A stretch of 64,000 nt of DNA from Candidatus Magasanikiibacteriota bacterium (GTDB lineage: Bacteria > Patescibacteriota > Patescibacteriia > Magasanikbacterales > UBA922): contig JBAYJP010000002.1 in NCBI GenBank assembly GCA_041665025.1, positions 196,820 through 260,819 on the forward strand, in the 5' to 3' direction. Below are positions 4,412-56,526 of this stretch, piece after piece. The position numbers and the translations under genes were made by a program. A model generated the notes under the pieces. That model saw only the letters and a program-made list of their open reading frames with translations. It was not told where the DNA came from and did not search any database. Position 1 is the stretch's first letter. The number at the start of each line of letters is the position of its first letter.

Positions 4412-5929
4412 ATGATAGAACAAGAGCTTAAACAACTTGGTTTTCATAAGAATGAGATAAAAGTTTATCTTGCGTTATTTGAATTGGGAAAGGGCAAGGC
4501 CGGCGAGATAATTGAAGCAGCTAATATTCACAGAAATTTGGTATACACCGCGCTAGATGTACTCGTTGGGCGCGGGCTTGTTACTAAAACAAATGTAAAT
4601 GGAATTGCAATGTTCACTCTTAGTTCTCCAGGTAATTTGCTAGAAGAAATTGATCACAAAAGACAATTGACTCAAAAAATTGTGGAAGAATTAAAAAGTA
4701 GGCAAGAAAAAATGTTACGTGAGATAACTATTTTTGAAGGATTTGATGGAATAAAACGAGCGACACGTCAGAATTTTCAAGCAGAAAAAGGTGAGACTGT
4801 GTATGTGCTTGGAGCTTCCACGCACGAGATTCTATCAGACTTATCTATGCGATGGCGCGCGTATGATAAAAAAAGAATAGAGAAAGGAATTGGATTTAAA
4901 GCATTGTATGGGCGAGGAACTGATCAGCACATTCTAGATGGAAAAAATGTATTACCTATGACAGAAGCAAAATACATGCCAAGCGATATTGATGCTCCGA
5001 TGTGGTTCAATATATGTGGTGATGTTAGTTCCATCGTTGCGATAGACAAAGAACCTATTGCAATCAATATAAAAAGCAAACAAATAGCAAATGGTCTAAA
5101 ACAATACTTTAATCATCTGTGGAACCAAAAAACTATAACATTTCAGGGAAATGAGGGTTTTGAAAAGGCTTTTGGTGATATATTACAAACATTACAAAGC
5201 GGAGATGAATTATTGGTTATGGGTATGTTTGATTTTGACCCAGAGTTTGCTCAAATGATTGCACAGTTTCATGAAAAGAGATCGAAAAAAGGCATTAAAG
5301 CAAAGATTTTATTGAATGAAAATGCATGCAAGCTTGGTGACATATTGAAATATTTACCACACACAAATATTAAATACATGCAAAAGGGGATTGTTACACC
5401 GGCAGTATTTCTTTTGTATAAAAACAAGACAGTAATTAGCTTGCCGAACCAAAGGACGTTCATTCAAATAGAGAATGAAGAGGCGACCGAATCGTTTCGT
5501 GTGTATTTTTACAATCTATGGAATCAAGAAGAAAGGATCTTGCAAGGTCCAGAGGCATTAAAAGAACTGTGGTTGGAAGGTATTGACACTAAAGAAATAC
5601 GATGGATTGGAGCTCGAGGTTATTTTGTGGATAATTATCCAAAATTTTTCGAGGAAATATGCCACAAAGCAGAACAGACGTCTGGTCTCAAATGTAAATT
5701 AATTATTGATCCAGGTTTTCGCGGTCATATCTTGACTCGTCTGTCATGGATTGAAACACGTTATAATTTGTCCTCAATAAAAAACCCCAATGCTGTTTGG
5801 CTTTTTGGTAATAAAGTACTTATTATAAGTTGGGCAAAAAAGGAACCAGTGATTTTCCTTACTACGAATTCTACTGTAGTACAAAGCTATAATGATTATT
5901 TTGAAGAATTGTGGAATATGAAAAAATAG
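4412..5929 (+). CDS. TrmB-family HTH transcriptional regulator with triplicated C-terminal domain
   Basis: N-terminus 'KNEIKVYLALFELGKGKAGEIIEAANIHRNLVYTALDVLVGRGLV' matches TrmB wHTH; three internal repeats ending ...YFNHLWNQK / ...YFYNLWNQEE / ...YFEELWNMKK. Confidence 0.7.
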   Translation: MIEQELKQLGFHKNEIKVYLALFELGKGKAGEIIEAANIHRNLVYTALDVLVGRGLVTKTNVNGIAMFTLSSPGNLLEEIDHKRQLTQKIVEELKSRQEKMLREITIFEGFDGIKRATRQNFQAEKGETVYVLGASTHEILSDLSMRWRAYDKKRIEKGIGFKALYGRGTDQHILDGKNVLPMTEAKYMPSDIDAPMWFNICGDVSSIVAIDKEPIAINIKSKQIANGLKQYFNHLWNQKTITFQGNEGFEKAFGDILQTLQSGDELLVMGMFDFDPEFAQMIAQFHEKRSKKGIKAKILLNENACKLGDILKYLPHTNIKYMQKGIVTPAVFLLYKNKTVISLPNQRTFIQIENEEATESFRVYFYNLWNQEERILQGPEALKELWLEGIDTKEIRWIGARGYFVDNYPKFFEEICHKAEQTSGLKCKLIIDPGFRGHILTRLSWIETRYNLSSIKNPNAVWLFGNKVLIISWAKKEPVIFLTTNSTVVQSYNDYFEELWNMKK

Positions 5930-5975: not shown

Positions 5976-6779
5976 ATGTCACCTAGCAATCTAGAAATTT
6001 TGTATAAGTATCTTCAAAAAATCGAACACGTTTCTTATTTTGTTTTACCTGCAAAAGAGTCTGCAAATTGGGTGTTGGTTTTGAGGACATTATTTAGAAA
6101 GTTAAAAGAAGAAATTGGGAATGAAAAGCTACCCGAGTTTCAGGCTGTTTTTAATCTCTTGTGTGAAGATAGAATAAACGAATACAAATTAGCAAAAAAT
6201 TTACATAGTTTTCTTTTAAAATTATATACTAAATCCTTTGATCAATTCAGTAGTTTGCTCGATAACATAGAAAAAAGGTCACTGAATTTTTGGATGAGTG
6301 AAGAACAAGCATATAAGATGCGCATATCAAAAGAAAGGGTTCAAGTTGTCGAACATGATGTATCTCTTTTGCAAAATGAAATGCAGTTATATGCACTTGA
6401 TTATTTTTTTAGCATGCAAAAATGGTTTGCAACTTCTGATAACAAGCAGAAATTGGTACTAATTTTTTATGGGAAAAACAATTTACCTTCACTCAAGGAT
6501 GATGCATTGGAAGATGATATGCTTGACAAAGTTGTATACCAGATGTGGGATTGGAGATTGAAAGTCAAAATGGTGAATGATTATTTTGATTATAAAAAAT
6601 CTTTTGTTAACGCCAAAAAGGAACATATATCGGATAAACAGTTGGTTGAAATTGAAGAATCTCTGCGTCGTTATTGCAAACAGTTGCTTGATATATCAAT
6701 ACAACATGGAATTCAAAAAATTGAAAACGGATTACTGTTGCCATATGGAAATATATATCTAAACAAAATAATCTTATAA
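5976..6779 (+). CDS. Hypothetical protein (267 aa), apparently co-operonic with downstream methyltransferase (1-nt gap)
   Basis: Long ORF, no recognisable motifs; stop 6779 / next start 6781. Confidence 0.5.
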   Translation: MSPSNLEILYKYLQKIEHVSYFVLPAKESANWVLVLRTLFRKLKEEIGNEKLPEFQAVFNLLCEDRINEYKLAKNLHSFLLKLYTKSFDQFSSLLDNIEKRSLNFWMSEEQAYKMRISKERVQVVEHDVSLLQNEMQLYALDYFFSMQKWFATSDNKQKLVLIFYGKNNLPSLKDDALEDDMLDKVVYQMWDWRLKVKMVNDYFDYKKSFVNAKKEHISDKQLVEIEESLRRYCKQLLDISIQHGIQKIENGLLLPYGNIYLNKIIL

Positions 6780-6780
6780 T

Positions 6781-7929
6781 ATGAAATTTTTTGATAGAAA
6801 AGAACCTCCTAAAGAAGATGGTGGGGAAAGTGAAAAGAAAGAAAAGGCCTCGAATTTTAAGTTGAAAGATCTGTTTGCTCGTATTGTTAGAAAGATAACA
6901 AATCTTCTTTCAGCTCCATTTGGTGAATTTGGAGAAGACGAGAAAGAATTATTTGAGCGCCAATTTAATCCGCGTGAATATATTGAATTGTATTATCCAC
7001 CAATAGATAAGGAATCGGTTAAACACATTTCAGATATTTTAGCTCGCGTAGAGGTACGAGAGATGGGTGAAGATGGAGTTAAATTGACAAAGATAGATGG
7101 TAGGCTTTTGGCACGGCAGTTTGAACACGGTTCAACCGAGGGGAAATCCATCGAGTTGCTCGAAAATTATTGCATTTATGATTTTGTAGCTCGAAAGGCC
7201 TTGCCTGCAATGCTTACAAAACGACCTGAGGATCATTTTAGTGTTCTAGATGTTGGCGGTGGGCCAACGGTATATCAGCATATCCCTCTTCTTGGTGTAT
7301 CAGACAAAATTACGCACGCAGAATATTTGGAAGCAAATAGACAAGAGATTGCAACCTGGAAGCAGGAGAAAGGGTACGATTGGTCTAGTTATATCGCATG
7401 CTGGCAATCATACCTCGCACTGCATCCCGAAGCCTATTCAATGGCCATGAAAGATGTTAGAGATGTGTTAGATAATTTATCTACCAAAGATCCGAGCATT
7501 TATAATCAAGAGATGGCTAAACGTATAGAGGACGTAATACCTGTGGATGTTTTCAGCCCAAACATTCTTTCTAGCCAAGAAGGATATGATGCTGTTTCTG
7601 TAGGAAAATGGGGTTGTGTCGATTTGTTAACTTCCCATTTCTGTATAGAATCAGCTACTGCAGATCCCAATAGGTGGAGAATAGGAATAGGCAATATTGC
7701 AAAAAAAGTGAATGAGGGAGGTTTTCTTATTATGACAGCTATTCGAAATGCTGAATGGTATAAGGTGGGGGATAATAAATTACCTGCTGTTCCTGTTGAT
7801 TACACAGCCATAGCAAATGAATTGAAAAAACATGGTTTCAAAGTTCTTGAAGGTACCGAATTACTCACCCATAACCAAAAAGAAGTCGGATATGATGGTA
7901 TGATTTTTATACTCGTTCAAAAACAATAA
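6781..7929 (+). CDS. NNMT/PNMT/TEMT-family SAM-dependent small-molecule N-methyltransferase, with ~60-aa low-complexity N-terminal extension
   Basis: 'FNPREYIELYY' resembles NNMT 'FNPRDYLEKYY'; SAM motif I 'VLDVGGGPTVYQHIPL' resembles NNMT 'LIDIGSGPTIYQLLSA'. Confidence 0.65.
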   Translation: MKFFDRKEPPKEDGGESEKKEKASNFKLKDLFARIVRKITNLLSAPFGEFGEDEKELFERQFNPREYIELYYPPIDKESVKHISDILARVEVREMGEDGVKLTKIDGRLLARQFEHGSTEGKSIELLENYCIYDFVARKALPAMLTKRPEDHFSVLDVGGGPTVYQHIPLLGVSDKITHAEYLEANRQEIATWKQEKGYDWSSYIACWQSYLALHPEAYSMAMKDVRDVLDNLSTKDPSIYNQEMAKRIEDVIPVDVFSPNILSSQEGYDAVSVGKWGCVDLLTSHFCIESATADPNRWRIGIGNIAKKVNEGGFLIMTAIRNAEWYKVGDNKLPAVPVDYTAIANELKKHGFKVLEGTELLTHNQKEVGYDGMIFILVQKQ

Positions 7930-49211: not shown

Positions 49212-51089
49212 ATGAAAAGATATTTCAAAATACCCCTTTTGTTGTTCCCTATCCTTATTTTGAGTTTGTTTTTTAATGTTGAAAGCCTAAAAGCAGCCTC
49301 ATTACCAGAAGTAAAAGTACGCGATGAAGGCTACGCAGTAAAATATATAAGCCAATCTGTGCCTGATCCTATTATCATTGAAGCGGGAAAGACAACGGCA
49401 ATCACATATACATTCAAGAATATAGGTACGAAGACGTGGGACAGTGGAAGCAAGCAGTATATTTCTGCATATACCATGGAACCTCGATACCGTGCATCAA
49501 TTTTCAAAAGTTCAAATTGGCTTGAGGCAGGACAAACTGCAAAAATTGAAGGAGTGGTGAAACCTGGGCAAACAGGCGAACTTACATTAGAATTAAAAGC
49601 TCCAGAAAAAACAGGGACATACACAGAAAAGTTTTGGCTTGCGGCAGATGGATATTCGTGGGTAAAGGGAGGTTATTTCTACGCAGTTATACACGTGGTT
49701 GAACCAAAAGAAATATTTTCAGATGTAACTACAGAAAATAAAGTTCCGGTTTCAGGTGATTACCAGGCAAAACGTATTTTGATAAATAAAAAATCATTTA
49801 CAGCTCGAGGCGGTGAAGCAATACCAGTAATAATAGGATATCAAAACATAGGAAAAGGTTCGTGGAAAAATTATACATTGACGAGCGGTGCTTCGGCAGG
49901 CCTAGCAGGAGACGTACGGCAACTAAGTTTTGCACATGACAACTGGAAGTCGCCCACAATCGTTTCTGAAGTCTCTGAAGAAATTTCATCAGGAAAAGTA
50001 ATCCGCCATGAATTTTTTATAAAAACGCCAAGCAAACAGGGGACGTATGTGTTGTCACTTTCACTTAAAACTGATGGAGTTACTATCCCGGGGTCAGAGA
50101 CAAGTGTGTCAGTAAATGTTACTGAGAATGCGCCTAATTACGTAGATGACGGAACGCCCGTAGCTATTGAAGCTCCTCGCTTGGCAGAAGAACCAAAAAT
50201 TAGAGTTGGACTGTGGAGAGACCCGGGGACAAAGGTTGATTTTATTTCTGCAGATGACACATATATGGTGTATGATGGCGAAACGCAGGTTGGAGAATTA
50301 CCAGTAAATACAAAAGCAACACTGACATTTAATAATGGCATATATGGTTACAAGAGCGGGGATGTGTCATTTTCTACAGGAAAATTTATTCGTTTAGTTC
50401 CTCAAAATAATTGGCGTGCAGTGTTCACTCTGATCAACTATGAGCGCTTGGTATCGTGGAAAGCAAAAGCAAATTTCAATGAGTACCGCGGAGCTATGGA
50501 ATTGCGCCAGACCGAAGATGCAAAGACGTTGTATGTCATCAATGAACTTATGTTTGAAGATTATGTGGCAGGTATTGGGGAAACTTCAAATGCATCACCT
50601 ATTGAATATATCAAAGCACTTCTTACCGCCGCACGCACATATGCGTTTTATATAAAAGAATATAGTAGCAAGCATGACAGTCGGTATTTCGATGTTGTGG
50701 CTCATACCGGAGATCAATTGTATTTGGGATATGTGAGTGAAAAATTAATGCCGCGCGTGGTCGATGCCGCTAACCAAACGCGAGGGTATATGATTACCTA
50801 TGACGCAGATTCAAATGTGGAAACCCCGTCAGATATTGTTATTACCCCATATTATGGCAATAGTGATGGACGTACGCGGAGTTGGACAGAGGTCTGGGGC
50901 GGCAAGACAAAGCCATGGCTTACATCAGTTGACGCAACGTATGACAAACGCGACGGAAGAAAAATGAATGGCCATGGTGTTGGTATGAGCGCGCGTGATG
51001 CCGCCATTCGCGCGGAAGAAGAAAGTGCCGATTGGCAGAGTTTGATTAAGTATTATTATACGGGTGTGGAAGTGGAGAAAGTTTATTAG
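49212..51089 (+). CDS. Secreted protein with two Ig-like (NBR1-like) N-terminal repeats and C-terminal SpoIID/LytB domain
   Basis: Signal peptide; repeated ~110-aa modules; 'LTAARTYAFYIKEY...VVAHTGDQLYLGY' SpoIID/LytB signature. Confidence 0.7.
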   Translation: MKRYFKIPLLLFPILILSLFFNVESLKAASLPEVKVRDEGYAVKYISQSVPDPIIIEAGKTTAITYTFKNIGTKTWDSGSKQYISAYTMEPRYRASIFKSSNWLEAGQTAKIEGVVKPGQTGELTLELKAPEKTGTYTEKFWLAADGYSWVKGGYFYAVIHVVEPKEIFSDVTTENKVPVSGDYQAKRILINKKSFTARGGEAIPVIIGYQNIGKGSWKNYTLTSGASAGLAGDVRQLSFAHDNWKSPTIVSEVSEEISSGKVIRHEFFIKTPSKQGTYVLSLSLKTDGVTIPGSETSVSVNVTENAPNYVDDGTPVAIEAPRLAEEPKIRVGLWRDPGTKVDFISADDTYMVYDGETQVGELPVNTKATLTFNNGIYGYKSGDVSFSTGKFIRLVPQNNWRAVFTLINYERLVSWKAKANFNEYRGAMELRQTEDAKTLYVINELMFEDYVAGIGETSNASPIEYIKALLTAARTYAFYIKEYSSKHDSRYFDVVAHTGDQLYLGYVSEKLMPRVVDAANQTRGYMITYDADSNVETPSDIVITPYYGNSDGRTRSWTEVWGGKTKPWLTSVDATYDKRDGRKMNGHGVGMSARDAAIRAEEESADWQSLIKYYYTGVEVEKVY

Positions 51090-51123
51090 CATTGATTTAG
51101 ACTGACTTAAATGGATTTAAACT

Positions 51124-51150
51124 AAAAACCGACCACGAGGTCGGTTTTTA
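51124..51150. terminator. Bidirectional intrinsic terminator (aaaaaccgacc-acgag-ggtcggttttta)
   Basis: 7-bp GC stem flanked by A/T tracts. Confidence 0.7.
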
Positions 51151-51163
51151 GTTTTCTATATTA

Positions 51164-52123
51164 CTAATTTTCAAAAAGTAGCGCATCAAAATAATTATTA
51201 TTTTTTGGGAGATGTACCTCAGTAGAAATCATTTTATGTAAAACTTTCTTTAATAAATATTCTAGTTTAAAACTAGCTGTCATGAAATCAGTCACATCAT
51301 CAAATAAAATTAATTTTTTTTTAACCGATTTACTTACTTCATCCTCTAACTCCTTAATAATTTTATTTTCGTGTATGATTCGCGAACGAATATCATATAA
51401 CACTCTAATGAACTCAAAGATGGTCTTTCTTTCCTGTGCACTTTTTCCAATAAAGAAAGCAGATCTCAATGCAACTTTGTATGTTGATTCGTGTCGTTCC
51501 CCAAAGATACTATCAAAAGCAATTATAAGATCTATCAGACATTCAATAATATCTTTATTTTCCCAAGAATTGTTAAGTCGTTTGATAATGTGATATTCTT
51601 TTGAATTCGATTGTCCTGTAAGTAATTCCATGTCTTTGCCCTTTCCGTCAATTCCTTTGCAAAAAAGGGAGTACTTATTGCAGAAAGTGCTAAATTCAGA
51701 AAAACCCACCTTGTCCATGGTTATACTTTCTTTTTCAGCAATTGAGTTTTTTCTTATTCTGTGATCATTTGTGGGCCATGGCCTAACAAAGAGTATATTT
51801 TTTGGATAAAAAATTCTTAATGAAACCAAAATGTTTTTTATTTTAGAATCACAAAAAATACGGTTGAAAAGCAATTTCTTTTTAAAATTAAAGATAATCT
51901 TTGTTTTTATAATTGCAATTTCTTCTCTGCACAGCGGAGAATTATTAGGGATTGAGAGCATAATATGTTCACCATCATTTTCTATTATCGGGCTTAACAT
52001 CACCTCAACATTTTCTTCGGAAAATAAGACATGACTGCTCTGTATCTCTAGACCACCAACAAAATACGTAAAAGAAGTAGGTGATTTTGCAATTAAGTTG
52101 GAAAAAATATTTGATCTCACCAT
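51164..52123 (-). CDS. Very AT-rich hypothetical protein with C-terminal HEPN-like R-x4-H motif (Abi-like candidate); ORF extends to 52165 through a terminator
   Basis: 'LYDIRSRIIHENK' Rx4H; ~28% GC gene bracketed by terminators 51124-51150 and 52151-52180. Confidence 0.45.
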   Translation of the reverse strand: MVRSNIFSNLIAKSPTSFTYFVGGLEIQSSHVLFSEENVEVMLSPIIENDGEHIMLSIPNNSPLCREEIAIIKTKIIFNFKKKLLFNRIFCDSKIKNILVSLRIFYPKNILFVRPWPTNDHRIRKNSIAEKESITMDKVGFSEFSTFCNKYSLFCKGIDGKGKDMELLTGQSNSKEYHIIKRLNNSWENKDIIECLIDLIIAFDSIFGERHESTYKVALRSAFFIGKSAQERKTIFEFIRVLYDIRSRIIHENKIIKELEDEVSKSVKKKLILFDDVTDFMTASFKLEYLLKKVLHKMISTEVHLPKNNNYFDALLFEN

Positions 52124-52150
52124 ACGGTATTTATTGCATTTTCGTTTTAT

Positions 52151-52180
52151 AAAAACCACCCGCATTGAGGATGGTTTTTT
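52151..52180 (-). terminator. recA intrinsic terminator (aaccatcc-tcaatgc-gggtggtt, one G-U)
   Basis: Hairpin + T-tract 5 nt past recA stop. Confidence 0.6.
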
Positions 52181-52184
52181 AAAT

Positions 52185-53240
52185 TTACTCCTCTACACTC
52201 TCCCGTTCTCCAACTTTACCTTTTTCTTCCTCAGGTGCCTCACCACGTTCCACCGCTTCCCAAATTTTTTCGCGTATTGCTTTCATAAGTTTTGGATTTG
52301 CGCGTAAAAATTCTTTTGCTTTTTCACGTCCAACACCAAGTTTTTCTTCGCCAAATGAATAGCTATTGCCGGATTTTTGGACTACTCTGTGCAATACCCC
52401 TGTGTCTATGAGGTCGCCCGAAACAGAAATTCCTTCGTTGTACATAATATCAAATTCAGTGGTGCGGAATGGCGCGGCGACTTTATTTTTTACTACTTTT
52501 GCTTTCACGCGATTGCCGATAATTTTTTCTGCTTGTTTTATTTGTGCGGCGCGTCGAACTTCAATACGGACCGAAGAATAAAATTTCAGCGCATTACCAC
52601 CAGTGGTTGTTTCAGGGTTTCCAAAAAACACGCCAATCTTCATGCGGGTCTGATTGATAAAAATAACAACTGTTTTTGTTTTGCTTACAATGCCGGTGAG
52701 TTTGCGAAGTGCCTGTGACATGAGGCGTGCCTGCAAACCCATGTGCTGGTCTCCCATTTCACCTTCGATTTCTGCTTTTGGAACAAGTGCCGCTACTGAA
52801 TCTACTACGGCCACGTCAACAGCATTTGAACGCACTAATGTTTCCAAAATTTCAAGTGCTTGTTCTCCTGTGTCTGGCTGGGAAATATACAAAGCGTCGA
52901 CATCAACGCCAATCTTTCGTGCATAGTCAGGATCGAGCGCGTGTTCGGCGTCAATAAATGCTGCAATTCCACCTAGTTTTTGGACTTCTGCAATAATATG
53001 CTGGGCAAGTGTAGTTTTTCCACTTGCTTCAGGACCAAAAATTTCTATAACTCTTCCACGGGGGACGCCTTTGACACCAAGTGCGATATCAAGGGAAATT
53101 GAACCAGTTGAGACCGCATCTACATTGCTTGCTTTTGCTTCTCCAAAACGCATAATGGCATTTTCGCCATATCGTTCTTTAATTTGATCAATAGCAGTCT
53201 GGGCTGCCTGGAGTTTTGGATTTTCAGCTTTTGTTGCCAT
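52185..53240 (-). CDS. recA: Recombinase A
   Basis: '[13 protein letters not shown]' Walker A, '[29 protein letters not shown]'. Confidence 0.97.
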
Positions 53241-53321: not shown

Positions 53322-54035
53322 TCAATTGGTATTTTGAGTGCTTGGTGCCAAGGTAATATAGTCAATATTTTTGTATATGATATGGCGTGTTTCAGAGGTA
53401 TTCTTTCCATGTTTATTATATGCATTGATAACCAATGTGTTAATGCCCGGAGACAAAAGGATAGTTTGTTCAAAATTTCCTTTTTCGTCGTTATTAATAT
53501 TTTCTCCGTTGATAGTAATTTTTGTTTCAGGCTCTGTTGTGCCAGTGACTTGTATAGAATTTTTTTGCGTCACCATACCCTCGGTAGGTTCGACAACAGA
53601 AAGGCTTGGAGGTCTTAAAATATTTTTTACATGGAGGCCTAAATAGAAAACAAGAGATAATGTCGCGGCTCCCACAAGAGCATAACGTATGATAAGAGGG
53701 AGACTGCGTAAATGCCACTTGGAACATAAGAATTTTTTCTGCTGTGTGGCACGCGGTTTGTACGATAATTCTTCCTCTGTAAATTGTTCAATAAATGGCG
53801 TAGGGTCTTCACCAAGCGCACTCACGTATTTTTTTATGAAATTTTTTTGGTAGACAGCAGAATATTTGAGCATTTCAAAATTACATTCTTCTATTGCTTG
53901 TAAATATTTTTTACTAATTTTTGTTTTTTTCTCAAGTTCTTCAAGTGATATACCTGACGCATCACGCAGAGATTTCAAACGCAAACAAACCCGCTTGCTC
54001 GGGATCAGACATTTTTTGGAAAACATGGGGGACAT
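53322..54035 (-). CDS. RodZ-like HTH (XRE) membrane protein
   Basis: N-terminal HTH 'LRDASGISLEELEKKTKISKKYLQAIE', central TM, C-terminal beta domain. Confidence 0.6.
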   Translation of the reverse strand: MSPMFSKKCLIPSKRVCLRLKSLRDASGISLEELEKKTKISKKYLQAIEECNFEMLKYSAVYQKNFIKKYVSALGEDPTPFIEQFTEEELSYKPRATQQKKFLCSKWHLRSLPLIIRYALVGAATLSLVFYLGLHVKNILRPPSLSVVEPTEGMVTQKNSIQVTGTTEPETKITINGENINNDEKGNFEQTILLSPGINTLVINAYNKHGKNTSETRHIIYKNIDYITLAPSTQNTN

Positions 54036-54106
54036 AACCTGACTAATTTTTAATTTCGAATTTTGAATTTTAAAACAATATCACAATATCCAATTTATCC
54101 GGCGTA

Positions 54107-54125
54107 GTCCCGACTGGGTCGGGAC
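54107..54125. other. Perfect 8-bp GC hairpin gtcccgac-tgg-gtcgggac downstream of ftsK
   Basis: Exact inverted repeat; no clear U-tract on either strand. Confidence 0.5.
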
Positions 54126-54153
54126 GAAAACGGAATATCTGTTTAGTATTTTT

Positions 54154-56526
54154 TTAATATTTATTATCTTCATTTTCTGTTTCTTTTTCTACGATTTCAT
54201 CGCCAATTCCTTCATCAATAGTTTCATCTTCCTGATCGCCCAATTCTTCTTCAGTTATTCCATCTTTTGCCACTTCATTTTTTGTTGGTGCGTCAAACGC
54301 ATTGAATTCTGCTCCTGCATCCATTGTATCATTTACCTCAGTTTCTGTCACGAGAATTTCACGAGGTTTTGCACCGTCGCCTGGTCCTATAATTCCTTCT
54401 TCTTCGAGTTCATCCAAAATACGAGCGGCACGTGCATATCCAATTTTTAATCGTCGTTGTAAAAATGACGCACTTGCTTTGCCCGCTTGCACCAGAGCCT
54501 TGCGTGCCTCGTCAAAGAGCGGGTCTCGATCATCGCTTGCTCCGCCAAATAAATTTAGAGTACCGCTTTTTTGTTGGCCCGTGATTGATTCATCATATTC
54601 AGGTTCTTCGTCACCCTTGAGATAATCCACGACATCTTTGAGTTCTTCTTCAGAAATAAATGCTCCTTGAATGCGAATTGGTTTACTGAGTTCTGCGGTT
54701 TGGAATAACATATCTCCGCGACCTAATAATTTTTCTGCGCCCGGAGAATCGAGTATTGTGCGCGAATCAATTTGTGATGCAACAGAAAAGGCAATACGTG
54801 CAGGAATGTTTGCTTTCATAAGTCCGGTAATAACATCAACACTCGGACGTTGTGTTGCAACAACAATATGTATACCAACTGCGCGTGCCATTTGTGCAAG
54901 TCGAATAATGCCCGCTTCTACTTCATTTGCTGCTGATGCCATAAGGTCTGCGAGCTCGTCAATGACAAAGACAATATGTGGCATTTTGTTATCCGGATGT
55001 TTTGCATTGTATGAATGTATATCGCGCGATCCAACACTGGCAAGCACTTCAAATCTTCTATCCATCTCGCCAATGGTCCATTTGAGCGCGTTCACTGTTT
55101 TTTGGACATTGGTAATGACCGGAGTTAACAAATGCGGAATACCATTGTAGAGCGTGAGTTCAACTCGTTTGGGATCAACCATTATGATGCGTAGTGTTTC
55201 TGCGGTATTTTGAAACAACAAACTCATGATAATGGTATTTACGCATACCGTTTTTCCAGATCCAGTTGCGCCGGCAATCAGTAAATGTGGCATGCGCGGT
55301 AGATCTCCAAACCACACTTTTCCGGCCACATCTTTTCCAAGTGCTATCATCATACTGTGCTGACGATTTTTAAACTCTTTTGACTCAAGCAATTCTTTTA
55401 CTGACACCAGTGCGGCGCGTTCGTTTGGCACTTCAATACCTACAAGCGGTTTGCCAGGAATTGGCGCTTCAATTCTAATTGGATGAGCAGCAAGCGCAAG
55501 CGCTAAATCATTTGATAATCCAGTAATGCGTGAGAGTTTGACGCCTTTATCGGGTTTAAGTGAGTATTGGGTTACTGTTGGTCCTACCCGTATTTCACCC
55601 ATAGTAACGCCAATGCCAAATTGGCTAAATGTGTCTTGGATGATTTCTGCGTTTGCCACGATGTCGCCACTCGTTGGTTTCCCTCGTTTGTCAGACAAGA
55701 GGGTTAGTGGTGGCAAATTTTTTATAATTACTCGTTTTGACCAGACATCAGATGGCTTATGCTCTGGTTCTTCTTGTTCAGCAGATTCCTCATCTTCTTC
55801 GTGAGATTCGTTACCTACTTGTTTATTTATAAATTTTCGTTTTGGCTCTTCTTCCTCTATTTCTTCGTCATTCTCAACTACTTCATTTTCGTTCTCATCT
55901 TCATCATTTGTCTCTCTATAGTCGCCGTTGATTTTAATTTTTTGAGTTCCCGCTACTGGTTGATATATTTTTTTTGTGATATTGATAATACAGTGGCCAA
56001 ACCAGCCAAGGCCAGATAATATTTTTTGATGAAATAAAATAAATGCAGAGAGAGACGCATTGAAAATAAGAAAGAGTGCGATAATAAATAGCCCAACTAG
56101 AATGACATATCCGGCAATAATGCCAGTGTATTGCTTCAAAGGCCATGCGAGCATACCAAATACCCCGCCACCAAATCCATCCAAAGCTTGCTGCCACATG
56201 TCTCCTGTTTCAAAATGCATGTGCATCATGCCTGACAGGGCAAAAAATAAAAAAATAGCGCCCATACCATGCATGGGACGATAATGATATTCACCCGAGC
56301 GCAACAAAAATCCTGCGAGTAGTAGAATAACTGCAGGCACAACATAGCGGATAGATCCAAATAGGAAACTCAGAAGATATTCATCGAGCATGATGCCAAT
56401 TGCGCCAGCCTTATCAAAAAAACTAAGCATGATGATGACTGAAAATACCATGAGAAGAACTGCGATGATACCGCGAGAAAGAGTTGGATTAAAAGACGAT
56501 CCAGTTTGTCTGCGTCTGCGGGACAT
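54154..56526 (-). CDS. ftsK: DNA translocase FtsK/SpoIIIE
   Basis: N-terminal TM helices, acidic linker, 'GATGSGKTVCVNTII' Walker A, C-terminal gamma winged helix. Confidence 0.95.
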   Translation of the reverse strand: MSRRRRQTGSSFNPTLSRGIIAVLLMVFSVIIMLSFFDKAGAIGIMLDEYLLSFLFGSIRYVVPAVILLLAGFLLRSGEYHYRPMHGMGAIFLFFALSGMMHMHFETGDMWQQALDGFGGGVFGMLAWPLKQYTGIIAGYVILVGLFIIALFLIFNASLSAFILFHQKILSGLGWFGHCIINITKKIYQPVAGTQKIKINGDYRETNDEDENENEVVENDEEIEEEEPKRKFINKQVGNESHEEDEESAEQEEPEHKPSDVWSKRVIIKNLPPLTLLSDKRGKPTSGDIVANAEIIQDTFSQFGIGVTMGEIRVGPTVTQYSLKPDKGVKLSRITGLSNDLALALAAHPIRIEAPIPGKPLVGIEVPNERAALVSVKELLESKEFKNRQHSMMIALGKDVAGKVWFGDLPRMPHLLIAGATGSGKTVCVNTIIMSLLFQNTAETLRIIMVDPKRVELTLYNGIPHLLTPVITNVQKTVNALKWTIGEMDRRFEVLASVGSRDIHSYNAKHPDNKMPHIVFVIDELADLMASAANEVEAGIIRLAQMARAVGIHIVVATQRPSVDVITGLMKANIPARIAFSVASQIDSRTILDSPGAEKLLGRGDMLFQTAELSKPIRIQGAFISEEELKDVVDYLKGDEEPEYDESITGQQKSGTLNLFGGASDDRDPLFDEARKALVQAGKASASFLQRRLKIGYARAARILDELEEEGIIGPGDGAKPREILVTETEVNDTMDAGAEFNAFDAPTKNEVAKDGITEEELGDQEDETIDEGIGDEIVEKETENEDNKY

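What the first reader, a model, noticed from the sequence alone, without database searches (positions are those of the whole stretch)
51124..52180. Very AT-rich single-gene islet between two terminators beside recA encoding a HEPN-like (Rx4H) protein - candidate abortive-infection/defence gene
The ~320-aa ORF has ~28% GC, well below its neighbours. It is insulated by strong bidirectional terminators on both sides (51124-51150 and 52151-52180). Its C-terminal region carries LYDIRSRIIHENK, matching the HEPN R-x4-6-H catalytic motif used by Abi-type RNases (e.g. Abi_2/AbiD-like, which have similar length). Compositionally deviant single genes next to recA/housekeeping loci are typical defence-island passengers.
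Basis: partly seen in the sequence, partly recalled or inferred. Interest (0 to 1): 0.5.

Follow-up and report, generated by a model that had tools for sequence, protein, structure and literature searches.

The report
Solitary compact HEPN RNase gene beside recA
A single, AT-rich gene wedged between recA and a cell-wall gene in a tiny-genome (Candidatus Magasanikbacteria) bacterium encodes a real HEPN-type ribonuclease with an intact catalytic motif. It belongs to a large, uncurated family distantly related to the anti-phage protein ApeA, so it is a plausible but unproven single-gene phage-defence toxin.

Summary
The gene is window 51164-52123 (-), 319 aa, 30.1% GC (not 28%). That is the lowest GC of 52 ORFs, but the cause is amino-acid composition; GC3 is ordinary. 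A very strong hairpin lies 3' of it and a moderate recA terminator hairpin lies 5' of it.

No Pfam, NCBIfam or PADLOC model covers the family, and the Abi_2/AbiD assignment is rejected. Compared with ApeA, the protein lacks the N-terminal domain and the ligand pocket.

The gene has no ortholog elsewhere. It is absent from 80 related recA loci, where efp is the commonest neighbour, and it has no partner gene. Relatives are solitary genes, several of them near integrases, restriction-modification genes or on plasmids.

Best reading: a self-contained HEPN RNase acting as an abortive-infection or defence toxin. The fold and motif are shown; the function is inferred.

The parts
51164..52123 (-). 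Protein-coding gene, 319 aa (deposited as WCW16_02745, hypothetical protein, Candidatus Magasanikbacteria MAG): a two-domain protein ending in a HEPN domain.
   Evidence: ORF list. Identical deposited protein P0001 on a 440-kb contig. Family HMMs match it at E = 1e-40 and 9e-42.
51614..52123 (-). N-terminal region (residues 1 to about 170): a predicted beta-sheet plus helices carrying the family's 'LRLFxxG' motif (here LRIFYPKN, around residues 100-107). Proposed sensor or regulatory domain.
   Evidence: AF2 secondary structure, pLDDT 45-90. Family HMM alignment runs from residue ~75-90. hhalign of the short against the long class covers it. The A1 profile aligns this part weakly with the Mid-domain region of Ec2ApeA, residues 176-330.
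51224..51601 (-). HEPN domain (residues ~175-300), with conserved R182, D198, D204 (Glu in 95% of relatives), E211, Y215, R220, Y243, R246, S247 and H251.
51371..51397 (-). Catalytic motif Y243-D-I-R246-S-R-I-I-H251 (Rx4H).
   Evidence: Read directly from the sequence. Y, R and H are invariant in alignment A1; over 152 sequences they are 99%, 97% and 100% conserved. R246 and H251 align with R502 and H507 of Ec2ApeA, and R502A is the catalytic mutant in bioRxiv 10.64898/2026.01.26.701840.
51119..51154 (.). Strong bidirectional intrinsic-terminator hairpin shared by the convergent SpoIID-like gene (+) and the HEPN gene (-).
   Evidence: Perfect 16-bp inverted repeat with a 4-nt loop. -25.6 and -23.8 kcal/mol, z = -7.8 and -7.3. 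Called by the terminator scan.
52151..52180 (-). Moderate terminator-like hairpin directly after the recA stop codon (52185-52187). It lies 28 nt upstream of the HEPN start codon.
   Evidence: 11-bp stem on the minus-strand RNA, -13.3 kcal/mol, z = -2.65, 3 of 200 shuffles as stable. Not called by the consensus scan.

Best explanation
The gene encodes a self-contained, two-domain HEPN ribonuclease from a large uncurated family that is a compact, distant relative of the anti-phage protein ApeA.

Proposed mechanism, by analogy with characterised HEPN enzymes:
- Two subunits pair through their HEPN domains, so that R246 and H251 from each form one composite, metal-independent RNase site.
- The enzyme stays inactive in healthy cells because of its own N-terminal domain or its oligomeric state. 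There is no antitoxin gene next to it.
- On phage infection or another stress cue it cuts cellular RNA, most likely tRNA anticodon loops or mRNA. Translation stops and the infection aborts.

What is shown: a real, intact gene; the HEPN fold and motif; family membership; no ortholog found outside this organism's own contigs and absence from 80 related recA loci; no partner gene.

What is inferred: RNase activity, dimerisation, the target, the trigger and the defence role.

The gene lies at a synteny breakpoint 3' of recA. Transcription must either read through the moderate recA terminator or start within the 28 nt after it.
For: Real gene and family:
- The exhaustive phmmer search gives 805 cluster representatives at E <= 1e-3, and all of the best 150 but one repetitive hit match residues ~175-300.
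- Family HMMs match the protein at 1e-40 and 9e-42 from residue ~75-90 to the end.
- The short and long classes are homologous over their whole shared length (hhalign probability 100%, E = 1.7e-54).

Catalytic motif: Y243, R246 and H251 are invariant in A1, and R182, Y215 and R220 are at least 90% conserved. The query keeps every conserved residue, with one Glu-to-Asp change at 204.

ApeA link: the A1 profile hits only ApeA in the PDB. E-values are 2.6e-5 for Ec2ApeA, 6.4e-4 for Ec3ApeA and 4.8e-3 for Ec4ApeA. In all three, helix H1 (IDLmIALEaL against LLNLWIAIESL) and the catalytic helix (aYdlRSkiVHG against IYRTRNLIVHTG) align in register. ApeA is an abortive-infection tRNA anticodon nuclease.

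Public annotation: RefSeq calls the plasmid homologues 'HEPN domain-containing protein'.

Accessory character:
- The closest non-self sequence matches only the C-terminal ~100-140 residues (29-43% identity, E >= 1e-10) in a library representing about 15 billion proteins.
- None of 80 related Patescibacteria recA loci carries a family member.
- At least 14 of those loci have efp in that position, and the second-closest relative has an HTH-Fic gene there.

Contexts of relatives: solitary genes next to a Schlafen/AlbA_2 protein, an integrase and an HTH_17 protein; an integrase, an HNH endonuclease and HipA; conjugative or large plasmids. Among 132 neighbours in metagenome loci, the most frequent families are type IIG/II restriction-modification, ResIII, integrase, transposase, MNT-like nucleotidyltransferase and NikA.

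No antitoxin: only 61 and 74 nt flank the gene, with no repeats or Rfam RNA.
Against: - No curated HEPN, Abi or defence model reaches threshold for the protein or its relatives. Pfam, NCBIfam and PADLOC give only scattered sub-threshold hits.
- The ApeA link rests on one profile. The long-class profile does not recover ApeA.
- The gene's own neighbourhood is housekeeping, not a defence island.
- Some relatives also sit among ordinary metabolic genes.
- The neighbour survey has no background control and its counts are small, at most 3 of 132 per family.
- No relatives were found in the phage or viral collections.
- No activity, expression or phage data exist.
- The N-terminal ~90 residues are modelled poorly.
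Confidence: 0.55

Rival explanations
1. It is the HEPN toxin of a toxin-antitoxin module, of the HepT/MNT, type III RNA-antitoxin or orphan-toxin kind. Its role would be addiction or stress-induced growth arrest rather than dedicated phage defence.
Against: There is no room for an antitoxin: 61 nt separate the gene from recA and 74 nt from the SpoIID-like gene. No tandem repeats or Rfam RNA occur there. No partner gene recurs across about 45 relatives' loci. At 319 aa with an extra N-terminal domain, the protein differs from the ~130-aa HepT toxins.
Confidence: 0.15
2. It is a housekeeping or stress-response RNA-processing RNase of this organism. It would be functionally linked to recA by read-through transcription as part of a DNA-damage response.
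For: It has the same orientation as recA and starts 61 nt after it. Only a moderate terminator lies between them, and no promoter-like site was detected. Some HEPN proteins are RNA-processing enzymes, such as Las1 (cited in bioRxiv 10.64898/2026.02.22.705581).
Against: The gene is absent downstream of recA in all 80 related species. No ortholog exists outside this organism's own contigs. The recA 3' flank is variable: efp, Fic, RibD_C and others occupy it in relatives. Relatives are scattered across Bacillota, Pseudomonadota, archaeal-type contigs and plasmids, and none of those loci had recA listed as a neighbour.
Confidence: 0.1
3. It is an inactive or decaying remnant, or a HEPN-fold protein that binds rather than cleaves, with no current enzymatic role.
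For: Sequence divergence is extreme: the N-terminal half has no pairwise-detectable homologue. The usual Gly after the catalytic His is Glu here, and the family's Glu is Asp at position 204. Composition is AT-drifted.
Against: The 319-codon frame is intact in 30% GC DNA, where stop codons are frequent (my estimate is about 1e-12 by chance). Every residue conserved at 90% or more is retained. Two contigs assembled from different public datasets carry it with 100% identity.
Confidence: 0.1
4. It is cargo of a small mobile element or prophage remnant inserted next to recA.
For: It has the lowest GC in the window, sits at a synteny breakpoint and is bracketed by hairpins. Relatives lie next to integrases and transposases.
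Against: There is no integrase, transposase, tRNA or flanking direct or inverted repeat. GC3 is ordinary. No phage or viral contigs carry relatives.
Confidence: 0.1

Closest known systems
ApeA (single-protein anti-phage HEPN system; Pfam HEPN_Apea PF18739 with ApeA_NTD1; structures 9hxb, 9hxd, 9hxi, 9hxj, 9hxm)
   Same: Both are stand-alone genes with a C-terminal HEPN domain. They share the Y-x2-R-[SN]-x-[IL]-V-H catalytic helix, and R246/H251 align with the catalytic R502/H507 of Ec2ApeA. They also share an H1 helix of the form [IL]-x-[LW]-I-A-[LI]-E-[AS]-L. The region before the HEPN domain aligns weakly with the ApeA Mid domain. ApeA is the only PDB family the A1 profile finds.
   Different: This protein has 319 aa against about 590-620. 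Nothing corresponds to ApeA residues 1-175, the N-terminal domain that forms half of the deoxydinucleotide pocket, or to the ~110-residue insertion between H1 and the catalytic helix that carries the pocket residues Y401, Y469 and R490. The Pfam HEPN_Apea model matched 1 of 51 relatives at E = 0.2, and no ApeA model was among the PADLOC hits. The long-class profile does not reach ApeA. The trigger and oligomeric state are therefore probably different.
Minimal HEPN toxins HepT (HEPN/MNT toxin-antitoxin; PDB 7ae2, 5yep, 8xdj) and related small HEPN proteins (TTHA0636, HI0074, YutE)
   Different: There is no MNT antitoxin neighbour, and this protein has an extra ~170-residue N-terminal domain. 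Sequence identity is only 7-16%. The Pfam HepT-like model matched 1 of 51 relatives at E = 0.12.
   Same: Similar length, the HEPN superfamily, and a single-gene abortive-infection logic.
   Different: No Pfam match for the protein at E <= 10 or for 51 relatives at E <= 1.
Other single-protein HEPN anticodon nucleases in phage defence (DARNA/PD-T7-3, HepS, PrrC)
   Different: The architectures differ: DARNA has an N-terminal HEPN domain plus a Pds5-like C-terminal domain, and PrrC is fused to an ABC ATPase. No PADLOC hit to any of them was found.

Membership tests
HEPN superfamily | Conserved R-x4-6-H catalytic motif | tested here: met
   R246-SRII-H251. Over 152 family sequences R is 97% and H 100% conserved, and the preceding Y 99%.
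HEPN superfamily | All-alpha four-helix HEPN core fold | tested here: met
HEPN superfamily | Match to a curated HEPN sequence model at its threshold | tested here: not met
   No Pfam, NCBIfam or PADLOC hit for the protein. Among 51 relatives there are only sub-threshold hits: HEPN_RiboL-PSP in 2, MAE_28990 in 1, HepT-like in 1, HEPN_Apea in 1, and Csx1/Csm6 in a few.
HEPN superfamily | Metal-independent endoribonuclease activity from a dimeric composite site | not testable with these tools
   Needs biochemistry or a multimer model.
ApeA defence family | Match to Pfam HEPN_Apea/ApeA_NTD1 or to the PADLOC ApeA model | tested here: not met
   The query gave no hit. One of 51 relatives matched HEPN_Apea at E = 0.2, and ApeA was not among the PADLOC hits.
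ApeA defence family | Detectable homology to solved ApeA proteins with catalytic residues in register | tested here: met
   A1 profile against the PDB: Ec2ApeA 2.6e-5, Ec3ApeA 6.4e-4, Ec4ApeA 4.8e-3. R246 aligns with R502 and H251 with H507. The link is weak, because the A4 (long-class) profile gives no ApeA hit.
ApeA defence family | Three-domain architecture of ~600 aa, with an N-terminal domain and HEPN insertions that form the ligand pocket | tested here: not met
   The protein has 319 aa. The aligned region starts at ApeA residue ~176 and skips residues 380-490. The pocket residues T36, S40, E74, R148, R152, Y401, Y469 and R490 have no counterpart.
ApeA defence family | Abortive-infection phenotype with tRNA anticodon-loop cleavage | not testable with these tools
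   Experimental property (bioRxiv 10.64898/2026.01.26.701840).
Abi_2 / AbiD-AbiF (PF07751) | Match to the Abi_2 profile | tested here: not met
   Absent from the Pfam results at E <= 10 for the query and at E <= 1 for 51 relatives.
HEPN-MNT (HepT) toxin-antitoxin | Adjacent MNT nucleotidyltransferase antitoxin gene | tested here: not met
   The neighbours are recA and a SpoIID-like gene, with gaps of 61 and 74 nt.
Defence-island passenger | Known defence or mobile-element genes in the immediate neighbourhood | tested here: not met
   Within 10 kb on each side lie rpoB/C, msrA, ftsK, an HTH_25 protein, recA, a SpoIID-like gene, a flippase, a Wzy-like gene and his genes. Several relatives do meet this feature.
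Accessory (non-core) gene | Absent from the syntenic position in relatives, with a patchy distribution | tested here: met
   None of 80 related recA loci has it. There is no ortholog above 50% identity. Strain-level polymorphism could not be tested, because the only two contigs are identical.

The most novel reading that the evidence does not exclude
The 300-340-aa class and the 430-490-aa class together form a previously uncatalogued family of single-gene 'mini-ApeA' HEPN systems. The family has at least 805 clusters at 50% identity and is spread across bacteria, CPR bacteria and archaeal-type contigs. These proteins would sense infection through their own compact N-terminal domain, using a trigger other than ApeA's deoxydinucleotides. 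In this CPR genome the gene's position just after a leaky recA terminator could tie its dosage to recA expression.
Probability: 0.3. Interest if true: 0.55.

Novelty: new variant of a known kind. Interest (0 to 1): 0.35.

Why it matters
CPR/Patescibacteria have tiny genomes and few recognised immune systems, so each credible defence gene adds to the picture of how they survive phages. The family is large, intact and missing from Pfam, NCBIfam and PADLOC, so current defence-finding pipelines do not see it. If it is a minimal ApeA relative, it gives a smaller scaffold for studying how HEPN anticodon nucleases are kept off and switched on without ApeA's ligand pocket. Set against that, HEPN RNases are a well-known effector class, and RefSeq already labels the homologues as HEPN proteins. 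The conceptual gain is therefore incremental.

Tried and rejected
- Single-sequence AlphaFold gave pLDDT 35 and was unusable.
- Foldseek with the whole model found nothing significant in the PDB or BFVD. The afdb50 library was unavailable.
- The word-indexed homologue search found only the protein itself, and with the family profile only 5 proteins.
- My third homologue search, with an Ec2ApeA fragment rebuilt from the HMMER output, returned nothing. A tblastn of that fragment against plasmids also returned nothing. So no ApeA alignment could be built for a profile-profile test.
A narrower alignment, A2, found no viral contigs and 43 metagenome loci.
- tblastn of a relative against the phage collection gave no match.
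- Abi_2/AbiD was rejected for lack of any profile hit.
- A weak Pfam hit to Plant_tran (E = 0.03, below the cut-off) and weak PHROG hits (phrog_28161, E = 4e-4, function unknown) were set aside as uninformative.
- recX, a common gene downstream of recA (my own knowledge), was considered. It was dropped because the protein is a HEPN-family member and nothing pointed to RecX.
- A mobile-element insertion was considered, but no repeats, tRNA or integrase were found.
- Recent horizontal transfer inferred from GC was downgraded after the GC3 analysis.
- The missing Shine-Dalgarno sequence was checked and is normal here: 11 of the 12 start sites examined have no SD-like motif upstream, and the one exception (Wzy) has it at -19/-18, too far upstream to serve.

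Full report
**What is there**

The window is the reverse complement of part of a 440-kb contig from a Candidatus Magasanikbacteria (CPR/Patescibacteria) MAG.

The finding's interval holds one ORF on the minus strand, 51164-52165, 333 aa from the first ATG. That ATG sits in the loop of the hairpin that follows recA. The deposited gene call starts at 52123 and gives 319 aa: hypothetical protein WCW16_02745.

The absence of a Shine-Dalgarno motif is normal for this genome. Of the 12 start sites I examined, 11 have no SD-like motif upstream, and the one exception has it at -19/-18, too far upstream to serve.

The neighbours are housekeeping genes. Upstream in the same orientation lie ftsK, an HTH_25 (RodZ-like) gene and recA (52185-53240). 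Downstream and convergent lies a 625-aa SpoIID-domain protein (49212-51089), followed by a flippase, a Wzy-like gene and his genes.

**Checking the observation**

- GC content. The ORF is 30.1% GC, against 39.3% for the window and 41-44% for recA, ftsK and the SpoIID-like gene. It has the lowest GC of the 52 ORFs of at least 100 aa (z = -1.65). The deficit lies in codon positions 1 and 2, while GC3 (0.275) ranks fourth and is unremarkable (z = -0.8). The low GC therefore mostly reflects a Lys/Ile/Asn/Phe-rich protein. It is weak evidence for recent transfer.
- 3' hairpin (51119-51154). This is a perfect 16-bp stem, about -25 kcal/mol and z about -7.5 on both strands. It is a convincing bidirectional terminator for the two convergent genes.
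- 5' hairpin (52151-52180). It is real and oriented to terminate recA, but only moderately stable (-13.3 kcal/mol, z = -2.65). The consensus scan did not call it. It leaves only 28 nt before the start codon, and no promoter-like site was found there. I infer that transcription either reads through from recA or starts at an unrecognised promoter overlapping the hairpin.
- Other features. There are no flanking repeats, no nearby tRNA and no Rfam RNA.

**What the protein is**

Curated libraries are silent. Pfam, NCBIfam and PADLOC give nothing, and PHROGs gives only a weak hit to a family of unknown function. The word-indexed search of 5.8 billion proteins found only the protein itself.

The exhaustive HMMER search of 1.84 billion cluster representatives found 805 proteins at E <= 1e-3. 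The best non-self hit scored 1e-10. Of the 150 listed, all but one repetitive hit match residues ~175-300.

The hits fall into two length classes, ~300-340 aa and ~430-490 aa. HMMs of either class match the query at about 1e-40 from residue ~75-90 to the C-terminus. The two classes align over their whole shared length (hhalign probability 100%, E = 1.7e-54), and the long class carries about 130 extra N-terminal residues. The query is therefore a divergent but full-length member of a large two-domain family.

Across 152 sequences the conserved positions, in query numbering, are:

| Position (query) | Conservation in family |
|---|---|
| R182 | 92% |
| D198 | 88% |
| D204 | Glu in 95%; Asp in the query |
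| E211 | 82% |
| Y215 | 78% |
| R220 | 94% |
| Y243 | 99% |
| R246 | 97% |
| S247 | 91% |
| H251 | 100% |

**Fold**

A single-sequence AlphaFold run was useless, with pLDDT 35. With the 51-sequence alignment the model reached pTM 0.76 and pLDDT about 90 over the C-terminal helices.

- the abortive-infection protein AbiA;
- HepT toxins 7ae2, 5yep and 8xdj;
- TTHA0636, HI0074 and YutE;
- Cas13b, Csm6 and Csx1;
- AF0298 and HepS.

**Closest characterised relatives**

The short-class profile, searched against all PDB sequences, retrieves only the anti-phage ApeA proteins: Ec2ApeA at 2.6e-5, Ec3ApeA at 6.4e-4 and Ec4ApeA at 4.8e-3. In each case the same two segments align in register:
- the helix before H1 plus H1 itself (…RFNssye…dRLIDLmIALEaL against …LHSMALQTNAVENQLLNLWIAIESL);
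- the catalytic helix (kkaYdlRSkiVHG against RRIYRTRNLIVHTG).

The family's invariant Arg falls on Ec2ApeA R502, the residue mutated in the catalytic R502A structure.

ApeA is an abortive-infection tRNA anticodon-loop nuclease. It forms decamers or dodecamers and is activated by 5'-phosphorylated deoxydinucleotides, which bind a pocket formed by its N-terminal domain and HEPN insertions.

The present family lacks both the equivalent of ApeA residues 1-175 and the ~110-residue insertion that carries the pocket residues. The Pfam HEPN_Apea model and the PADLOC models do not recognise it, and the long-class profile does not reach ApeA. I therefore treat it as a compact, distant ApeA-like HEPN family, not as a member of ApeA.

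RefSeq already labels plasmid-borne homologues 'HEPN domain-containing protein'.

**Is it an accessory gene?**

I fetched recA loci with 6 kb of flank on each side from 80 related species (recA identity 65-88%). The ftsK, HTH_25 and recA arrangement is conserved in most of them.

- None carries a family member.
- None has the SpoIID-like gene beside recA.
- In at least 14 of them the convergent gene after recA is efp, identified against PDB EF-P sequences at 5e-40.
- The closest relative has a RibD_C gene in that position.
- The second-closest has an HTH_3-Fic/DOC gene with reduced GC.

The HEPN gene therefore sits at a variable synteny breakpoint. efp is not in the 64-kb window. No ortholog above 50% identity exists in a collection of about 15 billion proteins. 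The two contigs that carry the gene are 100% identical, so within-species presence/absence could not be tested.

**Contexts of relatives**

Relatives are solitary genes with no recurrent partner.

- One lies beside a Schlafen/AlbA_2 protein, a tyrosine integrase and an HTH_17 protein.
- The Cupriavidus plasmid copy follows an HNH endonuclease and an integrase, and is near HipA.
- The Bacillus and Leisingera copies are on conjugative or large plasmids, near recombinases, an IS element and a P-loop NTPase.
- One copy on an archaeal-type contig follows an ATPase_2/DUF234 protein.
- Others sit among ordinary metabolic genes.

I scanned 132 neighbouring ORFs from metagenome loci. The most frequent families were Eco57I/type IIG restriction-modification, ResIII, DEAD helicases, integrase, TaqI_C, DDE transposase, MNT-like nucleotidyltransferase and NikA. 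PADLOC hits included restriction-modification components, mad2, PbeA and type IV restriction enzymes. Counts are small, at most 3 per family, and there is no background control, so this is only suggestive.

No relatives were found in the phage or viral collections.

**Mechanism**

Shown:
- an intact gene;
- a HEPN fold with every conserved catalytic residue;
- a family-specific N-terminal domain;
- no adjacent antitoxin gene or RNA;
- a non-syntenic, patchy distribution.

Inferred from established HEPN biology (Anantharaman et al. 2013, PMC3710099; the ApeA and DARNA preprints):
- HEPN-mediated dimerisation creates a composite R/H site.
- RNA cleavage is metal-independent.
- The N-terminal domain or the oligomeric state keeps the enzyme self-inhibited.
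- An infection or stress cue activates it.
- Cleavage of tRNA anticodon loops or mRNA arrests translation.

My confidence is about 0.9 that this is a HEPN protein, about 0.7 that it is an active RNase, and about 0.55 that its role is phage defence or abortive infection. The rivals are an orphan toxin-antitoxin toxin, a recA-linked housekeeping RNase, an inactive remnant and mobile-element cargo. Each is less well supported, for the reasons given in their entries.

**Verdict**

The specific Abi_2 analogy, the 'defence island' framing and the compositional argument are not supported.

The gene is a divergent member of a large HEPN family that current domain and defence databases miss, and its nearest characterised relative is ApeA. 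That makes it a new variant of a known kind, of moderate interest.

Noticed in passing
window 5976-6779 (+): A 267-aa ORF with the second-lowest GC in the window (30.3%; GC2 only 0.213) and no Pfam match. It lies between a TrmB-like regulator (4412-5929) and an NNMT/PNMT/TEMT-family methyltransferase (6781-7929). It may be another orphan accessory gene.
   Followed up: partly
L009 7168-8103 (-): In the second-closest relative (recA 85% identical), the gene directly after recA is an HTH_3 plus Fic/DOC protein, with GC 0.35 against 0.40 for the locus. The recA 3' flank therefore holds a different conflict-type gene in a sister lineage.
   Followed up: partly
L036 7182-7751 (-) and 13 other related loci: Elongation factor P (efp) is the commonest convergent neighbour downstream of recA in related Patescibacteria. 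It is absent from this 64-kb window, which indicates a rearrangement at the recA 3' boundary.
   Followed up: yes
window, 12 start sites (e.g. recA 53240, ftsK 56526, SpoIID-like 49212): None of the examined start sites has a Shine-Dalgarno-like motif at a usable distance upstream; the only match (Wzy) lies at -19/-18. This genome appears not to rely on SD-led initiation.
   Followed up: partly
loci L003, L004, L008-L012 and many others: Many contigs have Patescibacteria-type ftsK, rodZ-like and recA loci, with recA 75-88% identical to this Magasanikbacteria recA. Yet their GenBank records are titled 'uncultured Gammaproteobacteria bacterium', which looks like a taxonomy label error in those TPA assemblies.
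   Followed up: no
window 53322-56526 (-) and 80 related loci: The ftsK, HTH_25/RodZ-like and recA gene order is conserved across most of the 80 related Patescibacteria species sampled.
   Followed up: partly
P0010: A 2002-aa protein matched query residues 46-97 in 32 separate stretches. This is probably a repeat or compositional artefact of the AT-rich, Lys/Ile-rich N-terminal region rather than homology.
   Followed up: no
contig cA66Perp (ERZ1426824), gene at 1694-2662: A family member (P0018) lies on a contig that also carries archaeal-type ribosomal proteins (S3Ae, S13_N/S15) and CDC48. It directly follows an ATPase_2/DUF234 gene, so the family extends into archaea.
   Followed up: no
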